Assembly: GCF_009914755.1 (NCBI RefSeq)
Contig: NC_060927.1
DNA: 64,000 nucleotides
Source: the human T2T-CHM13v2.0 reference genome, Homo sapiens
Strand: one strand, 5' to 3'
The stretch's first letter is position 1. Every line of letters begins with the position of its first letter. The position numbers and the translations under genes were made by a program. This document shows, in pieces, positions 482 to 41,372 of this stretch. The notes below the pieces were generated by a model. It was given only the letters and a program-made list of their open reading frames with translations. It was not told the DNA's origin and did not search any database.

Positions 482-571
482 CTAGTTTGGTCTGCAGTGT
501 CTCTGGGCGTGGCGTGGTTTTATGTTTGGGACGTGGACGACGTGTTCTTGTTCGTTGCGATGTTTTTGGAG
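482..571 (-). CDS. ABI3BP: W25, 90 nt, phase 1-1: (A)PKTSQRTRTRRPRPKHKTTPRPETLQTKL
   Basis: Acceptor tcctttctttag, donor TAG|gtaaat; paralogous to W19. Confidence 0.9.
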   Translation of the reverse strand, partial: LQKHRNEQEHVVHVPNIKPRHAQRHCRPN

Positions 572-1398
572 CTAAAGAAAGGAAACTGGTTATTGTAGTC
601 ATATGACTCCAGAAACCAAAGAAAGGATTACACATGGTTCTAGGTTTTCTAAAGTTTTCCTAAGTCTTGAGAAATTTGTCTCTTTGGTTTAGAATTTTCT
701 TCTGATCATCTATATGCAAAAATATGTATTTTTGGTCTACTGACAGGTCTTTTGAGACAGATGGAATATATGTAATTTAAAAAAATAAACTGCAACTTTA
801 TTATTAGTTGCTGGTATAGGATTTTCAAAGAGGGCCCAGACCCAAGGGAAGTCAGACATAGGCACGTAGACATCACATCAGAGAGGGACCCAGGCCTGCC
901 TGCTTTTGGGAGAGCGTACTAAGAAATTACTTGGCTCAGACACACATTCCATTACAAGTTATTAGTATAAACACATTTTGTTTTCTAAAATAGTTGGTAG
1001 ACAATAAAAATTCTCTGTATATCTTAAAACAACAGAAAGTAAGATGCCCACAGAATTATAATTGATATTTATCAGGCAGACATTCCTAATTGTATTTGAA
1101 ATTCAGTTTTAACATAGAACACTACTGGAGCAGAATCACAGGCTCTGTCAAGCATTAATAAAGCTGGATAATATGGGAAAAATGGGACACAGATGCTGTT
1201 CACTAGTGGCGTATGGGCTTATAACCAAGTAACTTGTTTTAAGCACTTTCAATACATTCAAAATGAAGAATATAGTTCAATGACAAGAGGATGATGAGAA
1301 AATCTTATGAAAGAAAAAACCCTTAGCCCAAATAGTGATGGAATAGACTAGACAATGAGCAGAAAAAACTCATACTTAAAGACATAAGAGGTCATTAC

Positions 1399-1458
1399 CT
1401 AATGTTGTCACTGTAGCCTCAGTTCTCACAGTTACAGGCTCAATGTCTGTGGTGGGAA
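1399..1458 (-). CDS. ABI3BP: W24, 60 nt, phase 1-1: (V)PTTDIEPVTVRTEATVTTL
   Basis: Acceptor gcttttggttag, donor TAG|gtaatg. Confidence 0.88.
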
Positions 1459-2921
1459 CTAACCAAAAGCAATACAATAAACAATGGAGATTAAGAAATA
1501 CAGAAAAACAAAGTTATTTTGAAAATGAATCTTCTTAACCCTTTAATGTTTTAAATACATTTCTGAACTCTGGGAAAATAGTATTTGTTTTCCCCTAAGT
1601 AGCCAAACTATCATATCCATTTATTTCACAAAATACCCATACCCTTTGCATCCCTATAAGGGCAATGAAAAATATTTTTCTGTATTTCATTATCTGATTC
1701 CAACAACATAAAAAACCTGGATCCAAGAAAATCTTAGTTGTCCAATATATAATTTTAAAGTACTCTAAAAATTTGTTATAAAAGCTTCTGTTGGTATTTA
1801 AAAAGTTTTCACCACCATTATTAATTTGTTTTGAGAGTGGTAGTTGTGAGGAGAATTAGAAAGATGTTTTCAGTCTATTTACTGGAGATTTGTGAGAGTT
1901 GTGCAAAAGTCTTGTACGTTTTATTTGTAATAAATGTGATATTGCTTCTTACTCTGCCTCCTTATTCATTTATTTCAAATTGCTAATTAGGAGATAATTA
2001 TTCAAGTAGAAAACAGAGATAATTAAGAAGAAGGTCTAAAAGGTAATAATACAACTTTTTGTCTAGATATAAAGGATTTCTATAACATTCTGAAATTGAT
2101 TATACATAGATATAAAATTAATCAAGAATTGTAACTCTCTGGTATTAGCATCTCCATTTATCTTTCACTAAACCCAGAAGGCTAAATGTAACATTCAAAC
2201 ATCTCATCCTCAAAAACTCTTTAGGCATTTATAGAGAGGCTGACTTTCTCTTATTGCTCAAGACATCATAGCACAAAGTTGGTTTAAGCCACCACTGAGA
2301 GCATCTTCAGAACTAAAGGCATATATAATAGAAGAGATGGAGGAAGTCAGGACAACAGGATGACAACAATATTTATAATTAATTGCCTTCAAACAAAACA
2401 GAGAATCCTTATTTTGTTGGGAATTTTGCATCGCAAGATGAATTTAGCAACAGAAAGATCAATTTGCATATGAATAATGTGGAACAGGAAGAAAGGACTT
2501 TTGTGAGAAAGAAACAGTTATGTACCATCATGAGCTCCTTATAAACACATTGAGGACAAACTCCAACCAGCTTTTTCATTGCTCCCCTCCCACATCCATA
2601 AATTGTACCCACAAAGAAGCAGAGGTTTCAAAAAATTTTCTGGTTTGAAAGATGGATATAGACAGAGTGACTGTGACTCAAGCAATCTGAATGTCTCTGA
2701 ATGTGATCGAAGAAAGAATAACAATTATGTGTTACAAGCTGAGCAGCAGATGTAAGGATGCCTAATGATGTTAAAAAGGCCCCTGTTGAAAATAGTGAAA
2801 ATTTTTAAAAATGAAAACAAAAATGGTGAATGACAATTGTGCATATTATAGCTAATGAAAAAAGAGATGAGAGGCGCAAGCTCAGAGAAACATTGGCCAA
2901 GAAGGAAGAAAGCATCATTAC

Positions 2922-2969
2922 CTATGGTCATTGAGGGAGCTTCAGTTTCAAATGGAACAGGCTCAGAGA
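2922..2969 (-). CDS. ABI3BP: W23, 48 nt, phase 1-1: (V)SEPVPFETEAPSMTI
   Basis: Acceptor ttttttatgatgcag, donor TAG|gtaatg. Confidence 0.87.
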
Positions 2970-3269
2970 CTGCATCATAAAAAATAAACAGATATAAGTA
3001 ATAAAAGCAAGGAAGTCTAAACTTTTGGGTGCTCATTGGTGTTTAATTCAGAGGACACAGAGTCTAGTTTATTCTAAATTAATATAAATTGCCTTCTTGA
3101 TAGGCTTATTTATTATGTGAGATGCTTCTTAGCAAATTAAAATTTTATACTAATTGGAATCTTGGGAGAAAATTTCAACTGCAAAACAGTTGGATTCTGA
3201 GAACTGTTATATAAATATCTTCTTATGTGGTAGAAAATTACTCAGTTAACAGTTACTGTTTAAAATGTT

Positions 3270-3580
3270 GGCCGGGCACGTTGGCTCATGCCTATAATCC
3301 CGGCACTTTGGGAGGCCAAGGCAGGTGGATCACCTGAGGTCAGGAGTTCAAAAGACCAGCCTGGCCAACATGGTGAAACCCCCGTCTCTACTAAAAATAC
3401 AAAAATTAGCCTGGTGTGGTGGTGGGTGCCTGTAGTCCCAGCTACTAAGGAGGCGTAGGCAGGAGAATCACTTGAACCTGGGAGGCAGAAGTTTCAGTGA
3501 GCCGGTTGCACCACTGTACTCCAACCTGCGTGACAGAGCAAGACTCCATCTCTAAATAAATAAATAAATAGAATAAAATA
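3270..3580 (+). mobile_element. Alu (AluS-like)
   Basis: GGCCGGGCACG start, dimeric body, (TAAA)n tail, taaaatgt TSD. Confidence 0.95.
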
Positions 3581-4007
3581 AAATGTCAATAGAGTATTTT
3601 AGAGGAAGCTAATCCCTGACTAGCAAGTCTTCTTTTCAGTTGTGCCTATAAATGAAGAACAGTGTCAGCCTTCTGTGTGTACTAACAGTGGTTACTAAAA
3701 TGACTTTCAAAAATGTTTCAGATACAGAAAACTCAGGCTTCTGTTCATTACAAATTCAGAAAATAGGCCTAAAAAAGCTTTAAGAAAATGAAATGCCAGT
3801 CAATCAGGTATAAAATTTACTAATTTCCTACATATTGACTTTTTCATTTAGCACTTAAAACATCAGTGTGGCTACTTGGAGAAGATAATGAACAAAATTA
3901 TGGTATTTGGATTTCTATGATTTATATGATATGACAGATTGGAAACATTTTCAGCAATGTTTCCAAAGAAAATCCTGTTAAGCTAAAGCACTGGAAATTA
4001 TGTTTAC

Positions 4008-4082
4008 CGGATTTAGTTGGTGGCATGTCTGGTTCTGCTGTGGTTTGGGGTTTAGGAAGTAATTGTTTTGGTGGTTTTGAAC
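4008..4082 (-). CDS. ABI3BP: W22, 75 nt, phase 1-1: (G)SKPPKQLLPKPQTTAEPDMPPTKS
   Basis: Acceptor attttcttcag, donor CCG|gtaaac; separated from W21 by a 117-nt intron. Confidence 0.88.
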
Positions 4083-4199
4083 CTGAAGAAAATTAGAGTG
4101 CCATAATTAGTGTTACGGCTGAGCTGTGAATGTGGAGATTAATGTTACTTACACATTGTTTTCCTATTTATAGATCAAGGCATTGAAAGTAATGATTAC

Positions 4200-4262
4200 C
4201 AGGCTGAATTTGAGGTGCATCTGGTCTGTGTGTGGTTTTAGGTCTCTCAGATGGTTTTGAGG
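4200..4262 (-). CDS. ABI3BP: W21, 63 nt, phase 1-1: (A)SKPSERPKTTHRPDAPQIQP
   Basis: Acceptor ctttttctttag, donor CTG|gtaatc. Confidence 0.88.
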
Positions 4263-5366
4263 CTAAAGAAAAAGGTATTAAAATTACCACAATGGGTCAT
4301 GGCTGTGACTGTCAAAATTAAGGACAATTATGCAGAACAAAGACACTATATAAATTCAACGAATCTATAAACATTTCTGGGGTGTGGGAAGGGTGAAAAG
4401 AGTGTCTATTTTAACTACACACTAGCATAATTAGTTTTTCCAGAAAGGAAAATTAATTACTAAATGCTCAAAATGTGTTTTTGAGCAAAAGTAATGAGGA
4501 CAGTCATAAGACATTTTTCCTATATAAATAATTTCAAAATAGACAAAGTATATTAGTTCTATGTCTTTGATCAAAAGGTTTTCTTCAGTATACAAACAGT
4601 AAGGTAGAAATCTGATTGCTTAGGAGGCGATCTGGAAGTAATCCATAAACATTTGAAATTACACATGAGAAATAATGTTACATGGCTGCCGATGTCTGGG
4701 ATTTCCCAAAGTAAAGCCATGATAGATTTTGAGCGCTAAGAAACTATAATGAAATGATTATAATCAAACAGTATTAGTACTAAAAACAATAAAACCAGTT
4801 TGGGACTTTTAATGCTGTCAAGTTCCAAAGACCATCACTAGTTTTACATTGGATTCTAGATCAAGAACGATCTTGGTTCCTCTCGCTATCCATACCTATT
4901 CAAAAACATTTTTCAAAGAAACAGAAGAGCCGAAGAAGCCATTATTTCATGCAGCTTTTTAAAAAGAAGAAAGTCCTAGAAGTTGAATCAGTAAAGCAAT
5001 GAAATGCTAACCATGGCACTGGAGTAAAATTTTGCCATTTGTTCAGTTCAGGATGAGCACAGAGGTCCCTGTCTGAGAAGGAGTTGATGGCTTTCTCAAC
5101 CCCACGACACATATAGGGCAGACAGAAGGTCAGCAGAGAACCAGGAAGTTGTGTCCAAGACCACAGACCTTCCCTAAATGAGCACACTGGATTGTTTTAG
5201 AACTCTCCTATCTTTAGGATCTTCAGACCCAGACAGGAAAGGTGAGGAAAAGCGTGGGATGAAACTGTGATGAGGTGGTGGAACTGCAGTCATGCCTGTA
5301 ATGGAGAGTGGGGAAAGCAAAAGCTACAACCCGTGAAAGCAGCCGTGGTGGAGGGAGTAGAATTAC

Positions 5367-5414
5367 CAGTTGTGGGCACCAAGGGCTCCGGTTGTATCGT
5401 GGCAGGTTCCAGAG
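5367..5414 (-). CDS. ABI3BP: W20, 48 nt, phase 1-1: (A)LEPATIQPEPLVPTT
   Basis: Acceptor ttgcttctgtag, donor CTG|gtaatt; visible within ORF-track 5290..5478. Confidence 0.87.
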
Positions 5415-5869
5415 CTACAGAAGCAAATACCAAAAACATGAAATATTTCAAGAAGTGGCATCGTGAGGAGGGAGACATTATGCCTCAAGCTGGGACACTA
5501 CCTAAATGATGCATTTTTTCTGAATGTGATTTTCCCTTTTACAGTTCCCATTTTCCTTTCTCCTTGTTGCTTTCCCACACCTCATCTGCCATGAATGTAC
5601 ATCATAAGATTTCAAGGTGCTTTACTTTAATAATTCACTTAATGGGCCAGCTTTCTGCTGTGTGTACCTAATAACTATGACTGAGAGTATAAACATATTA
5701 TATAAAATATTACATATATAAAATGAATATAGAAACTGAGTACAGATGCTCAGTTATAAAAGTCAATTCCACTGGTTCCTAAAGCCCAGTTGCTCAAGTA
5801 GCTGATATCAAACCAGAAGCTGCCATATTCCACTTTCTATGTTAATTGGAACCTGAATATCACATTTAC

Positions 5870-5962
5870 CGGGTTTGGACTTGGGCACTTCTGGACTAGG
5901 TGTGGTTTTAGGGCGGGGACGGGGGCGGGGGCGACGACCTGGTCTTTTGGTCTTTCGTGGTG
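5870..5962 (-). CDS. ABI3BP: W19, 93 nt, phase 1-1: (A)PRKTKRPGRRPRPRPRPKTTPSPEVPKSKP
   Basis: Acceptor tttctttcttcag, donor CCG|gtaaat; CpG-rich relative to the flanking intron. Confidence 0.9.
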
Positions 5963-6617: not shown

Positions 6618-6656
6618 CTAATGTTGTTGAAGGTTTGGTTCCTGGTGTTTCAGGTC
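6618..6656 (-). CDS. ABI3BP: W18, 39 nt, phase 1-1: (G)PETPGTKPSTTL
   Basis: Acceptor cattgtcttag, donor TAG|gtaata; open frame, PTS-rich. Confidence 0.85.
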   Translation of the reverse strand, partial: DLKHQEPNLQQH

Positions 6657-6990: not shown

Positions 6991-7025
<35 letters not shown>

Positions 7026-7401: not shown

Positions 7402-7713
<312 letters not shown>

Positions 7714-7792
7714 AAACCCAAAGCTGAACAAAGTTGAACATGGAGAGTGTTAAAGATACTTTGTTTTCACTCATTAAAAAAAGCTTTATTAC

Positions 7793-7834
7793 CTATTGTT
7801 GACTGTGATGGCAGTAGAGTCTGAGGTTCTGGGG
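7793..7834 (-). CDS. ABI3BP: W17, 42 nt, phase 1-1: (A)PEPQTLLPSQSTI
   Basis: Acceptor gcttttattacag, donor TAG|gtaata; open frame, PTS-rich. Confidence 0.85.
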   Translation of the reverse strand, partial: PQNLRLYCHHSQQ

Positions 7835-12159: not shown

Positions 12160-12234
12160 CAGGTTTGGTGTGTGTCACTTCTGGGCTGAGAGGGATTTTA
12201 GGTTTCAGAGAAATAAATTGTGTTTTACCGGGAG
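12160..12234 (-). CDS. ABI3BP: W16, 75 nt, phase 1-1: (A)PGKTQFISLKPKIPLSPEVTHTKP
   Basis: Acceptor ctttatttttccag, donor CTG|gtaatt. Confidence 0.95.
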
Positions 12235-12645
12235 CTGGAAAAATAAAGAAACAAAATAATAAACAAATCAATATTTAGGCATTTCAGTGTCTAAAAACAC
12301 AGAAGGAAAACCTAGAAATAAACTATACATTAAATGGAATGAACTCATCGTCTTGGAAGATTTTGGAAATATTCCATTAAGAGAATATTTCATGATCCAT
12401 TCACAGAGAAGTAGTTAATTTTATCTTGTTTAGAAAAAACATTTCAAGAGTATATTTAATCAACAAATATAGCATTACTACTAAATAGTCACAGTAACTA
12501 CTCAAAGTAAAGATAGTTCTTATAATCTATGATTTTTAAAAATCAGTCTAATTATTTTGCACCCTTACTTCATATTTCTCAATCTCATCTAAGTCTGAGC
12601 ACTAGGGGGAAAAAACACCATGTTTTACAATTAATATTCACTGAC

Positions 12646-12740
12646 GTATGTGCAGGATGTACAGGTTTGTTATATAGGTAAACTTGTGCCATGGTGGTTT
12701 GCTGCACCTATCAACCCCTCACCTAGGTATTAAGACCAGC
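12646..12740 (-). mobile_element. L1 (L1PA/PB-like) 3' end fragment
   Basis: tgtgcaggatgtacaggtttgttatataggtaaacttgtgccatggtggtttgctgcacctatcaacc is the antisense primate L1 3' UTR end. Confidence 0.8.
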
Positions 12741-13389
12741 TATATTTTTATCAGCTTTATAAACTAAAAAGGAAAAATCTAAAATCATTCAACCAGTAGC
12801 TGATGTGCATATCTTTTGCAGATGCAACAATAAATTTAAACTTCCTGCATACAATTTTAGGGTGGCATTTTTCTTTTTCTCCTAATATTTCCAGAATCTG
12901 TCACTTTGGGCCTGTCTACCTAAACACATTTTAATAAGAAAAAAACTACTCTCAAAAAAATTCACCAATAGGTATAATGCTATGATCTGAAGCATAAAGT
13001 AATTCTACTAACATTAAAATTAAAAGTTGTTTTTCCAAATGAAGTTGGAAGTTGAACTTGAGAGTCTTACTAAAAAATAAAAAAAAGAGAACTATATACA
13101 AGATTCAACTTCAAATACAATGACTGGATAGATGACAAGGAAGCAGCAATGGTTCAAAAGCTGACACAGAATGACATCTGAAGGCTGAGTTCAGATCTAC
13201 TAACTGTTGGGCCAGCTAGCCACAACCACAATAGCCATGGAGCTGGTGCACTCTCTGAGATGGGCCATGCTGTTCAAATGAACCGTTTTGAGTATCTTAA
13301 CAGGTAACAGACATTACATAAAAGCTGGGGTACTGGATTTTCCATGGTGAAATGAAGCAACACATCTACTAAGGACATATCATTATTAC

Positions 13390-13461
13390 CCGGTGTTGTC
13401 CATGTAGGTTCAGGGCTTTTAGAAATTTTAGGTGTAATTGTTCCGGCACTTGTGGTTCTTT
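13390..13461 (-). CDS. ABI3BP: W15, 72 nt, phase 1-1: (E)RTTSAGTITPKISKSPEPTWTTP
   Basis: Acceptor cctttccatcaccag, donor CGG|gtaata. Confidence 0.95.
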
Positions 13462-14261
13462 CTGGTGATGGAAAGGAAAAAAATATTGAAATATCCTAGA
13501 GACAATAAAAAGACACCCTCTAAAGAGGAACTAAATGATCCATTTAAAATCCTGCCATATTTAGTAGTCAAAGTATACAATGAGTAAAAGTTTTGAGGAA
13601 GAATTGTTAAACTGTCATAACAGTATACATCATACAAAATTACATTTATCTTATAATGGAATAAGCAAAACCCAGTTGGTCAAGCATGATTCTGAGTATA
13701 TTGTTTGACAATGAAGAATTGACCTCCAGGTTAATAAGCATCTGTACCACCCAAACTCTGTGCTATAATATATATGTTATTCCCTTCTCCTTTTCTTCCA
13801 AATCCTACATGTATTTTGGGGTCTGTATCTTCAACTCTTTCTTGGAGCATTTACAAAAATATTACAGTCTTGGAAATAAGTTATGTAAATGTACGTTGTG
13901 CTGTCATTTTTATGTTTTATCTTCTCAAGGTTATAATCTATTTGAAAACCAGAGTCATGTCCTCTCTAACTCAGCCATTGCCCTGGTGAAAAACTGAAAA
14001 CAGAGTAGGTACCAAAAAAAATAGAAACATCACTCGAATGAACATTATAATAAACATGCACACCAAAAAACGAATTACATGTATCACTCTGTATTGCTAT
14101 GAGTGGGACTTGTTTCTAGGTTTTTACCAAAATTCACATGCAAAAATATAATTTTCAGTAAACCCCTTTTGGACACTTGAGTTTTGTTATTCTGCATTAT
14201 TAATTATTCATCTTTAGTTAATCTCAAATTTTGTAAAGAAACTAATCTATAAAACATATCC

Positions 14262-14512
14262 TTTTTTTTTTTCCCTGAGATAGAGTCTTGCTCTGTTGCC
14301 CAGGCTTGAGTGCAGTGTGCTATTATAGCCCACTGCAGCCTCAAACTTCTGGGCTCAAGAAGCACACCATGCCTGGCTAATTTTTTAAACTTTTGCAGAG
14401 ACGGGGTCTCACTAGCTTGCTCAGGCTGGTCTCAAATTCCTAGCCTCAAGTGATCCTCCTGCCTTGGCCTCCCAAAGTGCTGGAGTTGCAGGTGTGAGCC
14501 ACTGCACCTGGC
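14262..14512 (-). mobile_element. Alu (AluJ-like, internal deletion)
   Basis: Poly-T then antisense Alu; tatcctt TSD. Confidence 0.9.
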
Positions 14513-14587
14513 TATCCTTCTTACTATAAGAAAACGGACATTGTCTATCTGGAATTACATATCATGTAAATATAAAGAGACATTTAC

Positions 14588-14662
14588 CAGGTTTGGTTCT
14601 TGGCGGTTTGGGCCGGGGGCGTCGTTTAGGTGTAGAAGGGATAGATGTAGTTTGCTGGGGAG
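14588..14662 (-). CDS. ABI3BP: W14, 75 nt, phase 1-1: (A)PQQTTSIPSTPKRRPRPKPPRTKP
   Basis: Acceptor tcttctttcag, donor CTG|gtaaat. Confidence 0.95.
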
Positions 14663-15838: not shown

Positions 15839-15913
15839 CAGGTGTCGTAGGCTGCATTTCTGGACTGGTAAAGATTTCCAGTTTTTGAGGAACAAATGGT
15901 GTTTCACTTGGAG
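15839..15913 (-). CDS. ABI3BP: W13, 75 nt, phase 1-1: (A)PSETPFVPQKLEIFTSPEMQPTTP
   Basis: Acceptor tttgtgctttcag, donor CTG|gtaact. Confidence 0.95.
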
Positions 15914-16453: not shown

Positions 16454-16528
16454 CCAGTGTTGCCCTTGGCTGTTCAAGAGTTCTAGAAGTTTTAGGTGGG
16501 ATAGAATCCAGAATACGATCACTTGTTG
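16454..16528 (-). CDS. ABI3BP: W12, 75 nt, phase 1-1: (A)TSDRILDSIPPKTSRTLEQPRATL
   Basis: Acceptor ttattccaacag, donor TGG|gtaatg. Confidence 0.95.
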
Positions 16529-17668: not shown

Positions 17669-17734
17669 CTGTGTAGGAATCTGATATCTCAGGCTCATCT
17701 GATGTTGTAGGGCTTGAGAAAACATCATAAGTTG
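17669..17734 (-). CDS. ABI3BP: W11, 66 nt, phase 1-1: (A)TYDVFSSPTTSDEPEISDSYT
   Basis: Acceptor T16-aag, donor CAG|gtatat. Confidence 0.94.
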
Positions 17735-19824
17735 CTTAAAAAAAAAAAAAAAAGGCAAAACAAGAGAGATGTTAATTTTGGTTAAATTTGATTAATTTAG
17801 AAAGATTACATGACATGTTGTAATGCTGGTTGAAGGACAGTTTTATGTAGGTACTGGTGCATTTTGGCTCCAGGCTGCCAACCTTGTCACTAACATCTAA
17901 GCACCGAAACTCGCCTTTGGTCCTTTTTTGCTCTGAACCGCAGGATTTTATATAGTGAGCCCTGATGCTGGCCTCCAGGGTGATGAGAACATAGTGCTAT
18001 ATATTTATAATCATGCAGTGCCAGCTGTAAATCAAAGAGCTGCAAAGAGTATAAACATAAATAAAGTCAGATGGCAGTTTGGGGAGAGATTTTCAAAGAA
18101 GGAAAACAGCAGTCCCATTGAGGCAATTTGCCCAAAGTCTATTGCTCAGTCTTTCTGCTTAGTAAAAGTTACTGTTACAATATCTTATGTATGGACAGCA
18201 CTTCACAGTTTGCAGAGACTTACTCATACATCAACTTATTGAACCCTTTTAACATCCCTGAGAAATAGGTGAGGTAGGCAGTAGCCCCACTTTGTAGACA
18301 ATAGGAGGTTATCTCCATTTTTTAGATAACCAAGTTGTGGTTTATAGCATGAACACATCTGCCAGTGGTCACACACTGAAATTGTCCCATCCAGTGTATT
18401 TTCCTTTCCTTCAGCAGGACCAGAAACAGCAGGGCTAAAACCAGGATTCTCTTTTGGCACCTTCCCCTCCTGACATGTTACCTAGAGGCAGCTTTCTGTG
18501 CTTCTCCATACAGCCATGAGCCTTTCTCGAGTTTGGGCAGGTTTAAAGATAAATTTTCTATTCTGTACAAAGGAAAGTAGTATGAGCTTAAATATAAAGA
18601 TTGACTTATTTTAATATGGGGATAATTTTCATGTTCACATAAGAGTTGAACCTGCAAGCAAAAACAGCATCACAAAGTGTTCTCTTTCCTGTACAAACAG
18701 CTGTCACTGTGGTCACGAGGGATATAGAGAACACATGAATTATTACGAAGTAGATGTTGCTTTTCTTGTCCATTCAAAATGGCAGCACAGAAATCAAGAA
18801 GAAAGGAGCTCACAGGAAGACGTAGTCATTGGGGTTACTTGTAATTCAATGACAGTTTAATGCTTTTGAGCCAGTGCTGGTTGAAGCTGTAAGAAAGATA
18901 GTATCAGACCATGTGACATCCTCTGAAAGTAGACAGCATTTTATATTGTACTACATACTAAAGAGGCAGGAAATACATTGCAATGTGTGAAGGTGAATCT
19001 ACTATTTCACAAAATCCTCAAAAATAGCAAGAATATTGTGAGTTAAAGATATGCACACATTCTGAGAATGCATCTATTATATTGTAATGTCAAGTTTCCT
19101 TTAGCCTTGCTGTCATTTTAAAAGGTCAGATAAGAATGACTAATTTTTTAAAAGATTAATCAAAAGTGCCCGCAATTTCTGATCTTAAGCTTATTTTCAG
19201 CCAATTTCAAGTCATGGATCTGGCACGGTCAGCTCTATCTCCTACAAAATAAGAAAAACTTTGCCAACTTGTATTTAATCCTCTCACACTAGGTAAGAAA
19301 CTATGAGTTAATGGCTTTTTATTTCTATTGTTGCTTTTGAAAAATGTCATGACTGTCTTTGTTATCCTAACTCCTAAAGCTCCCTTCCATTTAGTGACAT
19401 TGGACCAATTTTCCTATAGTCTGTATTTTGTTCCAAAAGATGATATTTATTCACTCTTTTTACCTATTTTTCATATTTACAATTTCTTTTCAATCAGGAG
19501 GCTCCAAGCCAGGCATCCATCTCCCCTCATTATTCCCATAAGGCATTCGCTGGGGAAAGAAGCCTTTCTTCCATCATCCTTTGGCAACTGTGGCTCAAAT
19601 CTGGAAGTTCCCAATTTTCAGGGATCCCTTAACTTCCAAACATTTTATCAAATACACTTAAGACAAAAATAAGACATTTGCCAGCATACTTTGTTTTTAA
19701 TATTTCTATTTCTGTAGTTTCCAAGAGTTGGAAATAAAAAGAGTGCTAAAAAGCCACATATGCCACTAAAAGTTTTATGTTGTTTGGTCAGCTTTAAGCA
19801 GCACACCACACCTCATTTCATTTA

Positions 19825-25692: not shown

Positions 25693-26044
25693 TAGCGCTT
25701 CTCAAACTTTAATGTTCAATACAAAAATTAGCCAGGCATGGTGGCAGGTGCCTGTAATCTCAGCTACTCAGGAGGCTGAGGCAGGAGAATCGCTTGAACC
25801 CAGGAGGCAAAGGTTGCAGTGAGCCGAGATCGCACCCATCGCACTCCAGCCTGGGAGACAAGAGCAAACTCCATCTCAAAAAACAAAAACAAAAACAAAA
25901 ACTTTAATGTTCATATCGCCTGGGCATCTTGTTGGAAAGCAGATCTTGTTTCAATAGATCTAGAGTGGAGCCCAAGTTCTGCCTTTTCAACAAGTTCCCG
26001 GGTGATGCCAAATGCTATTGGACTGAGGATCATGCTAAGTAGCA
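25693..26044. mobile_element. MER5-type DNA element interrupted by an Alu
   Basis: gcttctcaaactttaatgttca|...cctgggcatcttgtt...gcagat...caacaagttcccgggtgatgcc. Confidence 0.7.
25719..25898 (+). mobile_element. 5'-truncated Alu (right arm only)
   Basis: Starts at the linker ATACAAAAATTAGCC; 15-bp TSD aaactttaatgttca at 25704-25718 and 25899-25913. Confidence 0.93.
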
Positions 26045-28115: not shown

Positions 28116-28190
28116 CAGTTTGAGGCTGCAGAACTTTGGAATCTTCAGATATTTTAGCTGTAGGCACAATCCATGGCTTTTCACTTGAAG
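28116..28190 (-). CDS. ABI3BP: W10, 75 nt, phase 1-1: (A)SSEKPWIVPTAKISEDSKVLQPQT
   Basis: Acceptor cttttcaatatag, donor CTG|gtaatt. Confidence 0.95.
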
Positions 28191-28641: not shown

Positions 28642-28713
28642 CCAATGTGCCCCTAGGTTTCTCAAAAGGGAAGGGTGTTTTTGCCTCAGGAAATTCTGGA
28701 AGGCTTTTTGGAG
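28642..28713 (-). CDS. ABI3BP: W9, 72 nt, phase 1-1 (likely alternative): (A)PKSLPEFPEAKTPFPFEKPRGTL
   Basis: Acceptor gtttcattacag, donor TGG|gtaata; C-terminal PRGTL resembles PRATL of W12. Confidence 0.88.
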
Positions 28714-29805: not shown

Positions 29806-29880
29806 CTAGAGTGCTCAGTGGCAATTCAAACTGAGGTATTAGAATAGTTTGCAATGTTTCCGGGGTCCTTTTGCTGAGAA
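29806..29880 (-). CDS. ABI3BP: W8, 75 nt, phase 1-1 (likely alternative): (V)LSKRTPETLQTILIPQFELPLSTL
   Basis: Acceptor ttttttattgtag, donor TAG|gtaaaa; open frame, same size class as neighbours. Confidence 0.88.
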
Positions 29881-30636: not shown

Positions 30637-30711
30637 CCAGTGTTGTTTCTGAAACATCTAATGCACTAGACGTAGTGGGTTTAGTGCTTCTTGGAACTGT
30701 TTCAGGAGTCA
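30637..30711 (-). CDS. ABI3BP: W7, 75 nt, phase 1-1: (V)TPETVPRSTKPTTSSALDVSETTL
   Basis: Acceptor tttttacctttcag, donor TGG|gtaatt. Confidence 0.95.
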
Positions 30712-32682: not shown

Positions 32683-32760
32683 CTGTTGTGGGTCGTGCTG
32701 AGATTTTTTCAACCTCTGGTGTTTTAGATTCGGCAGGTAATGCCAAGGTTTCATTCTTAG
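32683..32760 (-). CDS. ABI3BP: W6, 78 nt, phase 1-1: (A)KNETLALPAESKTPEVEKISARPTT
   Basis: Acceptor ctgactttttag, donor CAG|gtaatg; sequon NET. Confidence 0.95.
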
Positions 32761-35452: not shown

Positions 35453-35987
35453 ATACTGTATATCTATAAATGATATTTCAGACATCAGAGAACTTAGTAG
35501 TTGGGGAGGGTATTTGAATGGGGAACTCTTGATATATCAACCCCTGAGCATTCACCCACACTATCTATGCACAACTGCAATCTTGGCAATAGGAAAGTAA
35601 AATGCAATCAGAACACAGCCTAAAACCCAGGAAATTCCTTTTCCTCTATTTCTTCTGTACATTTTTCCATCACAGTTGTTTCCTTTAATTTTTGGCAGGC
35701 CAAGTCTTGACTTTGGCAAACCCTTTGTATGTCCCTTGGGGATGTGTGTGTAATCCTAACTTTTTTGTTTATATCTCTCATTATTCACACCATGTGTTCT
35801 TAGAACAAGCTATTATACTTCTTGATGCCCCGTTATGAGCTCTGCTGGAATGAGGATGTTGTTTTTAGGATTTACTACCTCAAAAAATGTAGCTTTTTTG
35901 AGTTGCAGTGATAATTAACTTCAGCGCAGTTTATTTCTCCCTTCATGGCATAAAGGACTGTTTATGCCCACACTTTGCAAAAAACAG

Positions 35988-37112
35988 TGCTTCTGTGCAG
36001 CAAAGGAAGCAATAAACAAAATGAAAAGGCAGCCTATGCATTGAGAGAAAATATTTGCAAACCACATGTATCTGATAAAGGGTTAAGATCCAAAGTATAT
36101 AAGGAACTTACACAAAATAGCGAAACAAAATAACACAACCACCCTCAACCCCAAATAACCTAATTAAAACATGGGCAAAGGACCTGAATAGACATTTCTC
36201 CAAAGAAGACATAAAAATGGCTAACAGGTATAAAAAAAAAAGTGCTCAACGTCACTGATCATCAGGGAAATGCAAAATTAAGACCACACTGAGATATCAC
36301 CTCACTTCTGTTAGGATGGATATTAAGCAAAACGATAAAAAATAGGTGTTGGCAAGGGTGTGGAGAAAAGGAAATTCTTGTTTATTGTTGAGGTGGAAAT
36401 GTAAATTGGTGCAGCTATTATAGAAAATGGTATGGAGTTTCCTCAAAAAATTAAAAATAGAACTACCTTATGACCCAGCAATCCCTCTTCTGGACATACG
36501 TCCAAAGGAAATGAAATCAGCACCTCATAGAGATACATACAGTCCCACATTCACTCCAGCATTGTTCACAACAACCAAGATATGGAAACGACTTAAATGT
36601 TCATTGATGAATGTATAAAGAAATTATGGTACACACACACTGGAGTATTATTCAGCCTTAAAAAAGGAGGTCCTGCCATTTGCAATAACATGGATAAATC
36701 TGGAGGATATTATGCTAAATGATATAAGCCAAGCACAGAAAGAAAAACACTGCATGATTTCACTCATATGTGGAATCTAAAAAAAGTCACATATATAGAG
36801 AATAAAACTTTATGAGGGATGGGATGGAGAGGGGGAAACAGGGAAATGTAGAACAGAGGGTAAAAAGTTGCAGATGCATAGGATGAATAAGACTAGAAAT
36901 CTAAAGTAGAAAACAAGAACTATAATTATAATATTGTATATTGGAAAAGTGTTAAGATTTTTGGTACTCTTACCACATGCACACACAAAGGGTAACTATG
37001 CAAGAGAATGGATGTTAATTTGCTTGAATATAGTTAACTATTTCACTAGGTACACATATAAAAAAAACTTCATCTTGGATGCTTGAAGCATATACAATAA
37101 AAAATTTTAAAA
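35988..37112 (+). mobile_element. L1M (L1MA/MB-like) 3' fragment: ORF2 end plus 3' UTR
   Basis: ORF-track 36427..36618 (LKKLKIELPYDPAIPLL) is an L1 ORF2 C-terminal remnant. Confidence 0.92.
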
Positions 37113-37232
37113 AATTGTATATGTAGTTTTTAAAGAAACATGGTCTACTAAGTTGGTACATTTGTTGGGTAGGATTTTCCTTTGATTTATCAGACATTTT
37201 CAAACATACTGGCTATCAGTCTCTTCAGTGTG

Positions 37233-37586
37233 TGATATGGTTTGGCTGTGTCCCCACAAATCTCATCTTGAATTCCCACATGTTGCGGGAGGGGCCTGGT
37301 GGGAGGTGATTGAATCATCAGGGCAGGTCTTTCCCATGCTATTCTCGTGATAGTGAATAAGACTCATAAGATCTGATGGCTTTAAAAATGGGACTTTGCC
37401 TGCACAAGAGCTCTCTTTTTGCCTGCTGCCATCCATGTAAGATATGACTTGCTCCTCCTTGCCTTCCATCACGAATGTGAGGCTTCCCCAGCCATGTGGA
37501 ACTATAAGTCCAATTAAACCTCTTTCTTTGTAAATTGTCCAGTCTCGGATATATCTTTACCAGCAGTGTGAAAATGGACTAATACA
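37233..37586 (+). mobile_element. THE1 (MaLR) solo LTR
   Basis: TGATATGGTTTGGCTGTGTCCCCA...GGACTAATACA, 354 bp, exact 5-bp TSD gtgtg. Confidence 0.95.
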
Positions 37587-37648
37587 GTGTGTAAGAAATT
37601 CTCCATGTGTTAAATTTTCTATGTGTTCTTTTATTATTAGCATCATAC

Positions 37649-37942
37649 TTTAAGAGACCAGGTCTTGCTCTGTTGCCCAGGCTGTAGTACAGTGGTGCAG
37701 TCAGAGCTCACTGAAACCTCAAACTCATGGGTTTCAGTGAACCTCCTGCCTCAGCCTTCTGAGTAGTTAGGACTACAGGCATGTACCATCATGCCTGGCT
37801 ATTTTTTTATTTTAATATTTTTTGTAAAGATGGGGTCTTGCTATATTGCCTACGCTAGTCTTGCATTGCTAGTCTCAAACGATTCCCTGGCTTCAGCCTC
37901 CCAAAGTGCTGGGGTTACAGGCATGAACCACCCCATCTTGCC
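37649..37942 (-). mobile_element. Alu (AluJ-like)
   Basis: Diverged antisense dimer. Confidence 0.9.
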
Positions 37943-39868
37943 CATGTATTCAATTTAAGACAGGCACTTCCCTCAAAAGCCAAGTTTAAAAACATACTTA
38001 CTATTTTCATAGTTTTAATTATTTGCATTTTACTATTTGCATTTATTTTTTCTTTATTAAAATAACACTTAATTCTGGACTTTTAGTGAATCATATCAGA
38101 AGAACAAAAGTAAAAACGAATCACAAGACAAAAATCCACTTTAATTCCTTAAAGAAAGCAAAAATGCTAAATTGGTATTATGGTAGCATGTAGAATTTTT
38201 AAATTTTTTTTTAAAGATTAGGAAATATCACTCAAGACTAAGCACTGAGGACCAGACCATGACATCTTCCAGTTTAAAACTGACAGCCGTGGTCTGAGAA
38301 ACAACTCTGCTCATTTTCAGTCCCCTTCACAAACACTGCTTTCTGCAGTTTTGATGGTAACATTAGGGACCAAATCAATGAGATTGGCCAGCTCCTTTTT
38401 TTCCTCCTTCCAAACAAGTTCTAGGCATGGGGCAAAGTATACAGTCTCTGGGCAGAGAACAGGTTAATGTAAGAGTCCAGAGCTTTAACTCTTCCAAACA
38501 CAGATCCACTGAGGGATCTTAATTTGGGAGCATCCTGGCAGCATCACATTTACATGATGTAGGGTTGGATAACAGGGTTTTATAGTTAAAGGGAGGTGAC
38601 CAAGTCTGATGCACAAATTAAGAAAATGAAGTCCAGAGTCACTTGACTATTTTCTGGGAAGTAACTAACTCTAGGACTACTAGATATGACTATTTTAAAG
38701 TAAAAATATAAGGATTGCACAAAACCACAAAGATATATTGGCAAATATTTTCACACCTTACTAAGATGTTGAACCATACGTTTTGGAAAATTTTCAAAAA
38801 TTGTAAGTCTAATAGTCCCCAGTTAAGTGCTTTTCTACCAACTTAAGGCCTTCCTCTTCCTTCTTCCAGGAGTTTCTCAAAATCAGCACCTAACGAGAAC
38901 TTAAGAGCTTGCCTTTTAAAATTCTTATAACTGGATTGCCCCAGATCAGTCAAGCAAAAAATGAAAAAAGTTAACTTAAACTTTCAGGTAACACTATTTA
39001 TGCAAAGTTAAGTGTCTGGATATTTGAAAAACACATGAAGAGATAGCAATTTCTTTTCAGGTTTTTTTAAAAAATTAAGTAGCTTGACATTATGTGGACA
39101 AAACTTCTAAACATCTCTACATGGCCCTATTCCCTAAAGAAGAAAATTGGAAACAAGAAAAAGACATCAACATTTGGTACCTCATTAGATTTGATGTCTT
39201 TTTTCCCCCAGTAAGTCTCCAGGGCAGGGAGGGAAAGGGGGAAAAAGGAAAAGAGTTATTGGCTTGTGGGATCCGCACTGTACCAGCAGCTACTTGTCAG
39301 GAACATCAAGGGTTTGTTCCCAGTGGATGCATGCTCTTGATAACAGAGAGATCACAGCAAGCCCTGACCTGACCAGAGGGTCTGCCCACCTAGGACCCCA
39401 GCCTATTGTTATGTTTCACGGTGTTTTCTTGAAATAAAAAATATTTGGGTTATATCTTATTTATCATTTCTTCTGCCTCTCTCTCAGCCAAAAAAGAGGA
39501 AATATCAACTGAAGCAGACAGATAAGGCCCCCAGTAGGGGAGGAGAAAGTAAGGGCCTTGTCTGAGGTCCCAGAATGAGCAGGTGCCATGCCTGGGTAAC
39601 TCACCATCATAGCCCCCAGCAACTTGCGGTTTTGACATAGGGTAATGCATAGTATTTGTTGAATGACTGTGGCCAAACAGGGGCTTGGGCCTCCGTTTCT
39701 TTATCCATACAATGTGCTGATTCAATCATATATTAAACATTAAAGTTCACAGCCAGTGCCTAGCTCAGGGAATACATTCTGTATTCTTAAGGTTTGTTCA
39801 ATTTCTACAGCACCATTTCTTCCAAATTTATTAACAGCCCAAGGTATTCTCTAGAGACATTGGAGGGG

Positions 39869-40069
39869 TAGTTCTCAAAGTGTGGTTCCTAGACCAGCAG
39901 TGTCACTATCACCTGGAAACTTGTCAGAAATGCAAATTCTCAGGCCCCATACCGGACCTACTGAATCAGTAATTCGGGAGGTGGGTTGGTGGTGGGGGGT
40001 GGTGGGCAGCAGTCTTTGTGTTAAGCCCTCCAGGTGCTCCTGATGTTTGATCAAGCTTGAGATTCTCTG
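39869..40069. mobile_element. MER5A DNA element
   Basis: gttctcaaagtgtggt...cacctggaaacttgtcagaaatgcaaattctcaggcccc...gacctactgaatcag. Confidence 0.88.
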
Positions 40070-40639
40070 CTAAGATACAATTTGGAGCCTAATTTGATAC
40101 TTAAATGCAGCAACCAACTCAGCCCAGTGACCTCCACATTTATTCCCTGGCCCTTTTTTAAGTGGATTTTCCGTTTTTTTCTTTTACTCTTATGTTTTAT
40201 GTTTTTTAAACACTGAACACATAACCAGTTCTAGAAATAGGAAGCAATATCAATCTCAAGTAAATAATAATTCTAATGAACCTGACCTTCACATCAATTC
40301 TCATTGCAAATACCTAGTCGCCCCATAATAGTATAGTAAGTATAATTTAGAATTACTTTATTAGAAAGTTATACATATGTATTTTGAAGATTTTCATAAA
40401 CATTCACTCTCATTTCATACATATAAATATACCTTATATAAATATGTACATATAAAATAACCATTTTCTTATAGAATGTTATTTATAATGAATACCTCCA
40501 ACACTCCAACCTCTTTGCCTCTACTTTTTTACTTTGAGATCCTCAAACAGCTCATTAGCAAGATTCTTTGGATTTCCTAAGAATATCAGTGCTAGTACTC
40601 AGTTACTGCAAAGTTCAAATACAAAACTTTTCTGCTTAC

Positions 40640-40732
40640 CTAATTGTGTCTTGAGTGCATCTGAAATCTCAAACATTAGGGATGCAGGAAGTTTTACAGT
40701 AGTTTCATTAAGACCTGGAATAATAAGGTGGA
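40640..40732 (-). CDS. ABI3BP: W5, 93 nt, phase 1-1: (V)HLIIPGLNETTVKLPASLMFEISDALKTQL
   Basis: Acceptor tttccttgcag, donor TAG|gtaagc; sequon NET. Confidence 0.95.
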
Positions 40733-41300
40733 CTGCAAGGAAATAGATGTAAATAAGATAAGGGGAAGAAAGTGCATCATGACATAAAATGAAGCTCAGC
40801 ACATCAGATATTACAAACTATGAAGCATAGCACTTATTTTGCTTAGTAAATTTTAACCCAAACTTTAAAACATTGGAAAAAATATAACCATACATTCTAA
40901 ATAGAATATTTTTCATATTTAACCAAACTTCTAAAATCCTCTGGCTTTTAATCCACAGACTCAAAAATTGTATAATGGCTGCTTAAGATGTGTGGTGAAC
41001 AAAGATTATTATCAATAACAATGATTTTTAAAAAAGCAGTTCAGTCAACTCTGTGGGGCAGGTAGGACAGGTGCCATCATTCCCACTGCACATGTGCTAG
41101 AGCTATTTCTTTAACACACCATGATAAAGATAGCGTGGCTTGGCTCCTAGCCTGGAATGGACACGAGCCAGGATGCTAAACAGTGAAAGGAAGTGAACCA
41201 CATCAATTAAACAGAACTACTCACACTGCAAAACTCCAGAAAAGCCCTATCCTCAAAAGATAGCCCGATTTGCTTAATCTCGATTTCGAGATCCACTCAC

Positions 41301-41372
41301 CTAGTATCACTCCTCCCAGTGGAGCTTTTTCTGGGGATTTAGCTGAATCCTTGTGAGTAACATTCTGAATCA
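41301..41372 (-). CDS. ABI3BP: W4, 72 nt, phase 1-1: (V)IQNVTHKDSAKSPEKAPLGGVIL
   Basis: Acceptor gtatttcaacag, donor TAG|gtgagt; N-glycosylation sequon NVT. Confidence 0.95.

What the first reader, a model, noticed from the sequence alone, without database searches (positions are those of the whole stretch)
482..41372. Array of 22 freely shufflable phase-1 micro-exons: a potentially combinatorial mucin-like stalk
Seen: W4-W25 (72,93,78,75,75,72,75,66,75,75,75,72,75,42,39,93,48,63,75,48,60,90 nt; 1536 nt, 512 aa) are all multiples of 3, all phase 1-1, and all end in G. Every possible junction codon is therefore GNN and can never be a stop, so any of 2^22 subsets is in-frame. Established: titin PEVK and tropoelastin tune mechanics with the same architecture. 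From memory, the ~1,070-aa reference TARSH skips W8-W9 and W17-W25. Inference: ABI3BP may be a splice-tunable molecular ruler whose stalk length, O-glycan load and charge set the spacing between its N- and C-terminal FN3 regions. The exons themselves are probably annotated; the combinatorial use is what may be undescribed.
Basis: partly seen in the sequence, partly recalled or inferred. Interest (0 to 1): 0.8.

Follow-up and report, generated by a model that had tools for sequence, protein, structure and literature searches.

The report
ABI3BP in-frame cassette-exon linker array
The disordered middle of the human matrix protein ABI3BP is encoded by a row of small exons that can each be left out without breaking the reading frame; cells do use this, but in blocks, and both the exons and their alternative splicing are already annotated and partly published.

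Summary
All 22 exons (window 482-41372, minus strand) are multiples of 3, phase 1-1 and end in G. None of the 231 possible junction codons is a stop.

The terminal G has a plainer cause than stop avoidance. It is the -1G of the donor site, and these donors almost all lack +5G (2 of 22).

The architecture is old, because a turtle orthologue aligns collinearly with all 22 exons.

Usage is real but not free. Twenty-five human isoforms show 11 inclusion patterns. A published cartilage junction table shows 11 skipping junctions organised around hub donors (W6, W16) and hub acceptors (W10, W14, and an exon beyond the window).

Alternative splicing of this region is already in print for osteoarthritis, tumours and stromal stem cells. 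The gene design matches tropoelastin, which is also phase 1:1 and cassette-like.

The "molecular ruler" function, O-glycosylation and charge tuning remain untested inference.

Verdict: a real, non-random, ancient cassette array, and a new member of a known kind. Interest is modest.

The parts
41301..41372 (-). W4, 72 nt, phase 1-1
   Evidence: Present in 25 of 25 human isoforms.
40640..40732 (-). W5, 93 nt, phase 1-1. Holds a possible in-frame internal acceptor that would give a 75-nt form (40640-40714).
   Evidence: Present in 25 of 25 human isoforms. Two turtle proteins lack the matching 6 aa.
32683..32760 (-). W6, 78 nt, phase 1-1. Hub donor.
   Evidence: W6 donor reads go to W7 61%, W10 17.5%, W11 10% and W14 11% (low-grade cartilage).
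30637..30711 (-). W7, 75 nt, phase 1-1
   Evidence: Present in 25 of 25 human isoforms, yet bypassed by 39% of W6 donor reads.
29806..29880 (-). W8, 75 nt, cassette
   Evidence: Present in 14 of 25 human isoforms. W7->W10 is 40% of W7 donor reads.
28642..28713 (-). W9, 72 nt, cassette
   Evidence: Present in 8 of 25 human isoforms. W8->W10 is 18% of W8 donor reads.
28116..28190 (-). W10, 75 nt. Hub acceptor.
   Evidence: W10 acceptor reads come from W9 29%, W8 10.5%, W7 35% and W6 26%.
17669..17734 (-). W11, 66 nt, acidic (net -5). A run of 16 T precedes its acceptor.
   Evidence: W6->W11 junction.
16454..16528 (-). W12, 75 nt
   Evidence: DNA similarity to W15: 78% over 50 nt.
15839..15913 (-). 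W13, 75 nt
   Evidence: DNA similarity to W16: 70% over 88 nt.
14588..14662 (-). W14, 75 nt, basic (net +7). Hub acceptor.
   Evidence: W14 acceptor reads come from W13 82%, W10 8% and W6 11%.
13390..13461 (-). W15, 72 nt
   Evidence: Present in 25 of 25 human isoforms.
12160..12234 (-). W16, 75 nt. Hub donor, the main switch point.
   Evidence: W16 donor reads go to W17 18%, W18 6%, W24 5%, W25 8%, an acceptor near window -25967 57%, and an acceptor near -39199 5%.
7793..7834 (-). W17, 42 nt, cassette
   Evidence: Present in 10 of 25 human isoforms. The W16->W18 junction skips it.
6618..6656 (-). W18, 39 nt, cassette
   Evidence: Present in 10 of 25 human isoforms.
5870..5962 (-). W19, 93 nt, strongly basic (net +11, an RRPRPRPRPK-type run)
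   Evidence: Peptide similarity to W25, E 7e-6.
5367..5414 (-). W20, 48 nt, cassette
   Evidence: Present in 10 of 25 human isoforms.
4200..4262 (-). W21, 63 nt, cassette. Only 117 nt of intron separate it from W22.
   Evidence: Present in 7 of 25 human isoforms. Intron length.
4008..4082 (-). W22, 75 nt, cassette. Skipped alone or together with W21.
   Evidence: Present in 5 of 25 human isoforms.
2922..2969 (-). W23, 48 nt, acidic
   Evidence: Present in 10 of 25 human isoforms. Net charge -3.
1399..1458 (-). W24, 60 nt. Acidic half of a two-exon repeat unit.
   Evidence: Present in 11 of 25 human isoforms. W16->W24 junction. Homologous units lie downstream.
482..571 (-). W25, 90 nt. Basic half (net +9) of the two-exon repeat unit.
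   Evidence: Present in 11 of 25 human isoforms. W16->W25 junction. Homologous units lie downstream.

Best explanation
W4-W25 are the first 22 exons of a longer array of small symmetric phase-1 exons. The array encodes the intrinsically disordered linker of ABI3BP (Pro/Thr/Ser-rich, with Lys/Arg/Glu), which lies between the N-terminal FN3 domain and the C-terminal FN3 + TARSH_C domains.

Origin. The array arose by tandem duplication of one- and two-exon units of about 25 and 47-50 aa, before the common ancestor of mammals and turtles.

Design. Every exon is phase 1-1 and ends in G. Removing any exon or block therefore keeps the frame and does not change the junction residue, which the next exon's first two bases fix as Ala, Val, Gly or Glu. 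The invariant G is best explained by splicing rather than by stop avoidance. The donors are G|GTAA(T/A), nearly all without +5G, so -1G is needed for U1 pairing, and it was also inherited through duplication.

Use. The array is a regulated, hub-structured cassette system. A few donors (W6, W16) choose among several acceptors (W7/W10/W11/W14, and W17/W18/W24/W25/two exons beyond the window). This gives proteins from about 1031 to at least 1786 aa, and the mix shifts with tissue state.

Inferred, not shown. Inclusion changes linker length and adds basic RRPRPK-type modules (W17-W25 carry net +16). These may alter reach and polyanion (heparin) binding.
For: Shown in the sequence:
- Phase, lengths, splice sites and open frame.
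- Donor statistics: -1G 22 of 22, +3A 21 of 22, +4A 21 of 22, +5G 2 of 22. In human donors -1G and +5G are each more than 75% conserved and form the strong G-C pairs with U1 (PMC10572768 passage).
- Junction residues: A 13, V 6, G 2, E 1.
- In 25 human isoforms every included exon peptide, junction residue included, matches with at most one mismatch whatever exon precedes it; a single mismatch was seen, in one isoform.

Duplication:
- DNA similarity W12~W15, W13~W16 and W16~W19. Peptide similarity W19~W25 with E 7e-6.
- 8 of 231 peptide pairs exceed the 99th percentile of 2000 shuffles, against about 2.3 expected.
- Periodicity of 25 and 47-50 aa in primate, turtle and unnamed distant orthologues.
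- About five 47-aa W24+W25-like units follow W25 in a macaque isoform.

Age:
- 5 of 95 representatives of 600 aa or more cover all 22 exons collinearly.
- One of them, P0124, shares 221 of 512 stalk residues and is named as a turtle protein.
- 28 isoforms of one turtle species vary in 25 blocks. 13 blocks are exactly 25 aa, and 20 of the 21 blocks of 6 aa or more begin with A, V or G.

Use:
- 11 inclusion patterns among 25 human isoforms.
- Block patterns among 120 mostly primate proteins.
- Cartilage junction table from 124 patients: 35 ABI3BP introns. All 19 junctions that touch the window map to annotated exon edges within 11 nt or less. 11 skipping junctions involve window exons, and 5 of these are 'novel annotated pair'.

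Regulation in print:
- Increased inclusion of the cassette from hg38 100808235 to 100846372 in high-grade osteoarthritis (PMC9239745 passages). This interval maps to the W16 donor.
- The disordered region is partly spliced out during stromal-cell differentiation (PMC13518942 passage).
- Multi-exon skipping in three tumour types (PMC8701385 passages).
- A PSI change of -44% in 100% of 53 breast tumour pairs (PMC4446417 Table 2).

Other:
- No Pfam family matches inside the linker.
- Composition: P 18%, T 16%, S 9%, no Cys.
- Abi3bp 'binds to heparin and collagen' (PMC4972867 Table 1).
Against: - Similarity between most exon pairs is weak (223 of 231 pairs are not above the shuffle threshold). 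Common descent of all 22 exons is therefore inferred from shared design, not shown.
- Simple splice-site measures do not separate the constitutive exons from the alternative ones: donor matches 6.60 against 6.25, pyrimidines 14.4 against 14.5. The basis of the hub behaviour is unknown.
- The isoform sets are mostly computer-predicted models. They are a ranked sample: 25 human proteins, while names run to X68.
- Junction fractions come from short reads, so which exons are included together in one molecule is unknown.
- Among near-identical downstream repeats, mis-mapped junction reads could create some of the 'many donors to one acceptor' series.
- No data here show that isoforms differ in length in solution, in glycosylation or in binding.
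- A print claim of a 'cluster of 10 MXEs in ABI3BP' (PMC5740500) describes the usage differently.
Confidence: 0.7

Rival explanations
1. Most of the 22 exons are toggled independently, so a very large combinatorial set of stalks (towards 2^22) is made and used as a finely graded molecular ruler.
For: - Every subset is formally in frame.
- Junction reads show skips not present in the annotation, for example W6->W14, W6->W11 and W10->W14.
- Turtle models skip many single 25-aa exons.
Against: - 10 of 22 exons are present in 25 of 25 human isoforms, and only 11 patterns are seen.
- Alternative junctions concentrate on a few hub sites.
- Introns W18-W19 through W22-W23 and W14-W15-W16 do not appear in the alternative clusters at all.
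- The main event is a block skip, taking 57% of W16 donor reads.
Confidence: 0.1
2. Tolerated splicing noise. Because the linker is disordered and every exon is symmetric, mis-splicing is harmless and accumulates. The isoform variety has no function beyond one or two main forms.
For: - Many skipping junctions are minor, at 1-5% of their cluster.
- Sequence conservation of the linker is low: 43% identity to turtle.
- Splice-site strength does not distinguish the exon classes.
- Donors lacking +5G are weak.
Against: - The exon design and the variable use are kept in turtles.
- The direction of change is consistent: 100% of 53 tumour pairs, osteoarthritis grade in 124 patients with cluster FDR 1.5e-259, and a differentiation time course with proteomic support.
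- Curated human isoforms include both states.
Confidence: 0.17
3. A cluster of mutually exclusive exons, as stated in print: exactly one of a set of similar neighbouring exons enters each transcript.
For: PMC5740500 names a 'cluster of 10 MXEs in ABI3BP' lost in the mouse-rat ancestor (passage). It lists two ABI3BP clusters with tissue differences in its supplements.
Against: - For the 22 window exons the defining feature fails. Human isoforms P0391 and P0393 hold all 22 together, and neighbouring exons are joined in all 25.
- Cartilage reads join W6-W7-W8-W9-W10, W16-W17-W18 and W23-W24-W25.
- I could not see which exons that paper meant. They may lie in the repeat beyond the window.
Confidence: 0.03

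Closest known systems
Tropoelastin (ELN) gene architecture
   Same: All splice sites are phase 1:1, so one or more exons can be removed cassette-like without touching the downstream frame. Alternative splicing is extensive, and it is an extracellular matrix protein (PMC12554196 passages). ABI3BP W4-W25 are 22 of 22 phase 1-1.
   Different: There are no alternating hydrophobic and cross-linking domains. The composition is P/T/S/K/R/E rather than G/V/P/A. There is no evidence of elastomeric function or cross-linking, and no sequence relationship.
Titin PEVK exon array
   Same: Many small symmetric exons of about 25-28 aa encode a disordered, proline- and charge-rich segment. Differential splicing sets its length. 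The PPAK motif is cited as an example of symmetric disordered modules in PMC3632108 (passage). The splicing details are recalled, not seen in a call.
   Different: Titin is an intracellular sarcomeric spring, whereas ABI3BP is secreted. P+E+V+K is only about 38% here. The splicing regulator of the titin array (RBM20, recalled) has no shown link to ABI3BP.
General class: consecutive symmetric exons encoding disordered regions, made by internal tandem duplication (Schad, Kalmar, Tompa 2013; Patthy 2019)
   Same: Symmetric exons are enriched in disorder. Alternatively spliced symmetric exons are the most disordered. Such genes often arise by internal tandem duplication (PMC3632108 abstract). Skipping of symmetric modules preserves the frame (PMC6335736 abstract).
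   Different: ABI3BP is not mentioned in either paper (0 occurrences in the listing). A run of 22 or more is an extreme case, and the invariant -1G with missing +5G is not part of that description.
Mucin-type PTS domains
   Same: P+T+S is 43% of 512 aa, with no Cys, and the protein is secreted. ABI3BP is listed as a glycoprotein in an endothelial secretome (PMC3617342 table).
   Different: S+T is only 25%. There are many charged residues and no highly homogeneous tandem repeat in the window. No O-glycosite data were found: 9 papers hold ABI3BP and 'O-glyco', none in title or abstract, and only one was opened.
Mutually exclusive exon clusters (Hatje et al. 2017)
   Same: Similar neighbouring exons of like length in the same frame. 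ABI3BP is listed there.
   Different: The window exons occur together in one protein and are joined by reads, so they are cassettes, not mutually exclusive.

Membership tests
Symmetric phase 1-1 cassette-exon array (tropoelastin-type gene design) | Every exon is a multiple of 3 with the same intron phase on both sides | tested here: met
   22 of 22.
Symmetric phase 1-1 cassette-exon array (tropoelastin-type gene design) | Exons are actually removed singly or in blocks in transcripts, without frame change | tested here: met
   11 patterns in 25 human isoforms. 11 skipping junctions in cartilage reads. In print.
Symmetric phase 1-1 cassette-exon array (tropoelastin-type gene design) | Origin by internal tandem exon duplication (similarity between exons) | tested here: inconclusive
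   Clear for some exons (W12~W15, W13~W16, W19~W25, and W24+W25 against the downstream units), and there is 25/47-aa periodicity. However, 223 of 231 pairs are not above the shuffle threshold.
Elastin protein family | Alternating hydrophobic (G/V/P) and Lys-Ala cross-linking domains | tested here: not met
   G 2%, V 4.5%, A 5.9%. No Pfam match in the linker.
Mucin domain | High Pro/Thr/Ser content in a long Cys-free stretch | tested here: met
   P 18%, T 16%, S 9%, Cys 0 in 512 aa. This is at the low end for S+T.
Mucin domain | Dense O-GalNAc glycosylation | not testable with these tools
   No site data found. Supplements of glycoproteome papers were not examined.
Mutually exclusive exon cluster | Exactly one exon of the cluster per transcript, with no reads joining cluster members | tested here: not met
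   All 22 exons occur together in P0391 and P0393. Neighbour-joining junctions appear in cartilage.
Micro-exons | Length at or below about 51 nt (definition as in the abstract of PMC12064062, listing) | tested here: not met
   Only 4 of 22 (42, 39, 48, 48 nt) qualify.
ABI3BP / TARSH orthologue group | N-terminal FN3, long linker, C-terminal FN3 plus TARSH_C (PF21731) | tested here: met
   Pfam hits on P0116 and P0120. Window exon peptides match human ABI3BP isoforms with at most one mismatch.

The most novel reading that the evidence does not exclude
ABI3BP carries a splice-programmed telescopic linker. A small set of hub donors (W6, W16, and exons beyond the window) choose among ordered acceptors. 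Linker length and the number of basic RRPRPK-type modules therefore change in quantal steps of about 25 and 47-50 aa. This hub-structured graph has been conserved since the amniote ancestor. It would set the reach and the heparin/polyanion valency of the protein in the matrix, shifting with differentiation, osteoarthritis and tumour stroma.
Probability: 0.2. Interest if true: 0.55.

Novelty: new member of a known kind. Interest (0 to 1): 0.3.

Why it matters
ABI3BP is a little-studied matrix protein tied to senescence, mesenchymal differentiation, osteoarthritis and tumour suppression. A review of it has no occurrence of 'isoform' or 'exon' in its main text (PMC6426741).

Work with 'the' 1075-aa protein leaves out W8-W9 and W17-W25. 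It also leaves out the repeat beyond the window, which together with W17-W25 makes a 437-aa block in macaque isoforms.

That block carries most of the basic modules, and its inclusion is the variable that changes in disease data. Knowing that every exon is a seamless cassette makes isoform-specific constructs and antisense switching straightforward to design.

It is not a new principle. The design is that of tropoelastin and of symmetric-exon disordered regions in general.

Tried and rejected
- Hidden or decayed exon copies in the large introns: none.
  - A strict scan gave 26 hits on the minus strand: 18 of the 22 annotated exons, 5 in-frame variants of annotated exons, and 3 PTS-poor hits upstream of the array.
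  - The same scan gave 7 hits on the plus-strand control.
  - tblastn of the exon peptides found no significant intronic match.
- Splice-site strength as the cause of constitutive versus alternative behaviour: no difference by simple measures. MaxEnt-type scoring was not available.
- Splicing regulators: a six-term search (ABI3BP with QKI, RBFOX2, MBNL1, ESRP1, PTBP1) returned only PMC4446417 with ABI3BP among the 25 papers listed. No regulator was identified.
- O-glycosylation of ABI3BP:
  - The 15 papers listed do not hold ABI3BP.
  - One search found 9 papers, none with the terms in title or abstract.
  - One was opened and is not about glycosites.
- Print description of the phase-1 architecture of ABI3BP: none of the 15 papers listed holds ABI3BP. 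This is weak evidence of absence.
- Pfam inside the linker: nothing at E <= 0.01.
- Rodent loss of part of the array is stated in PMC5740500.
- Structure and complex prediction were not used, because the region is disordered and no binding claim is made.
- Three literature queries were rejected for their format and re-sent in valid form.


Full report
**1. Observation**

The gene lies on the minus strand. I extracted the 25 annotated exons of the window.

- 22 of 22 are multiples of three, 22 of 22 are bounded by AG and GT, and 22 of 22 end in G.
- The three exons upstream in the transcript (182, 53 and 49 nt) are not multiples of three.
- Joining all 25 exons gives one frame without a stop, against 52 and 27 stops in the other two frames. 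All 22 array exons begin in phase 1.
- The array encodes 512 residues. None of the 231 ordered exon-to-exon junction codons is a stop. Inside the exons the other two frames hold 22 and 45 stops.

'Micro-exon' is a loose label, since only 4 of the 22 exons are 51 nt or shorter.

**2. Why every exon ends in G**

- The donors are unusually uniform: -1G 22 of 22, +3A 21 of 22, +4A 21 of 22, but +5G only 2 of 22.
- A review passage states that -1G and +5G are each conserved in more than 75% of human donors and make the strong G-C pairs with U1 (PMC10572768).
- By my arithmetic, 2 or fewer of 22 at a 75% expectation has a probability of about 1e-10. 22 of 22 at 75-80% has a probability of about 0.002-0.007.
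- The simplest reading is that these are G|GTAA(T/A) donors that cannot afford to lose -1G, copied by duplication. The dependence between -1 and +5 is recalled knowledge and was not seen in a call.
- The absence of stop codons at junctions is a by-product.
- A more useful consequence follows. Because the first base of each split codon is always G, the junction residue depends only on the downstream exon (Ala 13, Val 6, Gly 2, Glu 1).
- In 25 human isoforms every included exon peptide, junction residue included, matches with at most one mismatch (seen once) whatever exon precedes it. The cassettes are seamless.

**3. What the exons encode**

- The 512 residues are 18% Pro, 16% Thr, 9% Ser, 8.4% Lys, 7.4% Glu and 5.5% Arg, with no Cys.
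- The only three N-x-S/T sequons lie in W4-W6.
- Pfam finds only the N-terminal FN3-like domain, the C-terminal FN3 and TARSH_C. Nothing matches inside the linker.
- Charge is patterned. W14, W19 and W25 are strongly basic (+7, +11, +9), while W11, W23 and W24 are acidic. The W17-W25 block adds net +16.

**4. Origin**

- Most exon peptides are only weakly alike: 8 of 231 pairs exceed the 99th percentile of 2000 composition-matched shuffles, against about 2.3 expected.
- Some relationships are clear. W12~W15 is 78% identical over 50 nt, W13~W16 is 70% over 88 nt, W16~W19 also match, and the peptides W19~W25 match with E 7e-6.
- A hit between W21 and W22 in that call is only their overlapping flanks.
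- The linker of primate, turtle and several unnamed distant orthologues shows identity periodicity at 25 and 47-50 residues.
- In a macaque isoform, W24+W25 is followed by about five further 47-aa units of the same acidic-plus-basic two-exon type.
- The array thus extends beyond the window start and grew by duplication of one- and two-exon units.
- No extra or decayed copies were found in the large introns.

**5. Conservation**

- A search of cluster representatives with a macaque isoform gave 1103 hits, of which 150 were listed.
- 5 of the 95 listed proteins of 600 aa or more are covered collinearly over all 22 exons.
- One of them, P0124, shares 221 of 512 stalk residues with the human exons. 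A named database lists it as a turtle ABI3BP.
- 28 isoforms of one turtle species differ in 25 blocks. 13 blocks are exactly 25 aa, and 20 of the 21 blocks of 6 aa or more start with Ala, Val or Gly.
- This is the signature of the same phase-1, G-ending design.
- The architecture, and its variable use in annotation, therefore predate the mammal-turtle split.
- One paper states that a cluster of ABI3BP exons was lost in the mouse-rat ancestor (PMC5740500). I did not test this.

**6. How the array is used: annotation**

- The first 120 proteins retrieved (119 primate, one bat) show block patterns.
- In 25 human isoforms there are 11 inclusion patterns:

| Exons | Present in |
|---|---|
| W4-W7, W10-W15 | 25 of 25 |
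| W16 | 24 of 25 |
| W8 | 14 of 25 |
| W9 | 8 of 25 |
| W17-W20, W23 | 10 of 25 |
| W21 | 7 of 25 |
| W22 | 5 of 25 |
| W24, W25 | 11 of 25 |

- Two isoforms hold all 22 exons.
- These 25 are a ranked sample. Source names run to isoform X68, and the hub table counts 58 RefSeq transcripts. Most are computed models.
- In same-species macaque models, exact mapping shows skipped segments starting at residues 575, 802, 824, 849, 917 or 964. Apart from smaller separate skips, they end at residue 1011, or 1014 in one model. That is many donors joined to one acceptor exon lying beyond the window.

**7. How the array is used: reads**

Supplementary table 8 of PMC9239745 covers 124 patients and compares low- with high-grade osteoarthritic cartilage. 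It lists two ABI3BP intron clusters of 23 and 12 introns.

I calibrated the hg38-to-window offset on four junction ends that fit exon edges exactly. All 19 junctions that touch the window then fall on annotated exon edges within 11 nt or less, with locally constant small shifts.

Shares of each donor's reads, computed from the low-grade column:

| Donor | Acceptor (share of donor reads) |
|---|---|
| W6 | W7 61%, W10 17.5%, W11 10%, W14 11% |
| W7 | W8 60%, W10 40% |
| W8 | W9 82%, W10 18% |
| W10 | W11 88%, W14 12% |
| W16 | W17 18%, W18 6%, W24 5%, W25 8%, exon near window -25967 57%, exon near -39199 5% |

- Eleven skipping junctions involve window exons, and five are marked 'novel annotated pair'.
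- Exons that look constitutive in the isoform models (W7, W10-W13) are therefore bypassed in part of the reads.
- The choices are concentrated on a few hub donors and hub acceptors.
- The introns W14-W15-W16 and W18-W19 through W22-W23 do not appear among the alternative clusters.
- The junction the paper's text highlights (hg38 100808235-100846372, more inclusion in high grade) is the W16 donor joined to the exon beyond the window. Its delta-PSI is -0.042.

**8. Other print evidence**

- The disordered region (positions 391-818) is partly spliced out during osteoblast differentiation of stromal cells, with long-read and proteomic support (PMC13518942 passage).
- Multi-exon skipping at the same locus is seen in colon, kidney and thyroid tumours (PMC8701385 passages).
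- A PSI change of -44% was found in 100% of 53 breast tumour pairs (PMC4446417 Table 2).
- The review of ABI3BP has no occurrence of 'isoform' or 'exon' in its main text.
- I found no paper describing the phase-1 design of this gene. These searches cover open-access text only.
- The 'cluster of 10 MXEs' label does not fit the window exons, which occur together in proteins and are joined by reads.

**9. Mechanism and comparison**

- Shown: the design, its age, and regulated block-wise use.
- Inferred: inclusion lengthens a disordered spacer between the two folded ends and adds basic modules.
- Abi3bp is said to bind heparin and collagen (PMC4972867 Table 1), but which part binds was not seen.
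- O-glycosylation is plausible from composition only.
- Simple donor and polypyrimidine measures do not explain which exons are alternative, and no regulator was found.
- The closest known design is tropoelastin, where all splice sites are phase 1:1 and splicing is cassette-like (PMC12554196).
- The general rule is that consecutive symmetric exons encode disordered, alternatively spliced segments that arose by tandem duplication (PMC3632108 abstract; PMC6335736 abstract).
- ABI3BP is not a member of the elastin or titin protein families. It shares their gene logic.

**10. Verdict**

- The finding is real, non-random and ancient.
- The exons are annotated, their alternative splicing is published in pieces, and the principle is known.
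- What could be new is the hub-structured, quantal use of the array and any functional consequence. Both need long reads and protein work.

Noticed in passing
window 25915-26011, + strand (intron between W10 and W11, opposite strand to ABI3BP): Rfam match to the mir-544 precursor family: 71.1 bits against a gathering score of 66.5. It folds into a long hairpin of -42.5 kcal/mol, with z -5.6 against shuffles. It abuts a stretch masked as repeat, so it may be a repeat-derived hairpin. No gene is annotated there in the hub table.
   Followed up: partly
window 40640-40714 (inside W5): A possible in-frame internal acceptor 18 nt into W5 would drop six residues. Two turtle proteins lack exactly the matching six residues. 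Of 298 occurrences of the flanking motif, 271 are preceded by the exact six residues. Of the 27 exceptions I saw 20, and apart from the two turtle proteins and one unnamed representative that also lacks W4, these were sequence variants.
   Followed up: partly
beyond the window start (about window -1938 to -25967 by the offset): The array continues with about five near-repeats of a 47-aa two-exon unit homologous to W24+W25. In macaque models and cartilage reads, several donors there join one common acceptor exon. This may be the 'cluster of 10 MXEs' of PMC5740500. Read mis-mapping among the repeats could inflate the series.
   Followed up: partly
window 4083-4199: The intron between W21 and W22 is only 117 nt. 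The two exons are skipped together in three human isoforms, including a curated one, and W22 alone in two more.
   Followed up: no
window 17735-17757: The acceptor of W11 is preceded by an uninterrupted run of 16 T, the strongest pyrimidine tract of the array at 19 of 20. W11 is one of the acceptors chosen directly from the W6 donor.
   Followed up: no
W6->W14, W6->W11, W6->W10, W10->W14, W16->W18 (window exon edges 32683, 28116, 12160 to 14662, 17734, 28190, 6656): Five junctions in the published cartilage table are marked 'novel annotated pair'. Their splice sites are known but the pairing was not in the annotation used. One of them skips seven exons that are present in all 25 human isoforms sampled.
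   Followed up: yes
proteins P0001 and following (table): The precomputed domain list of most ABI3BP proteins includes PF28033. This accession gave no hit in the Pfam search, so I could not tell what part of the protein it covers.
   Followed up: no
window 60761-60827: A run of 67 A at 93% purity, inside a stretch listed as masked repeat.
   Followed up: no
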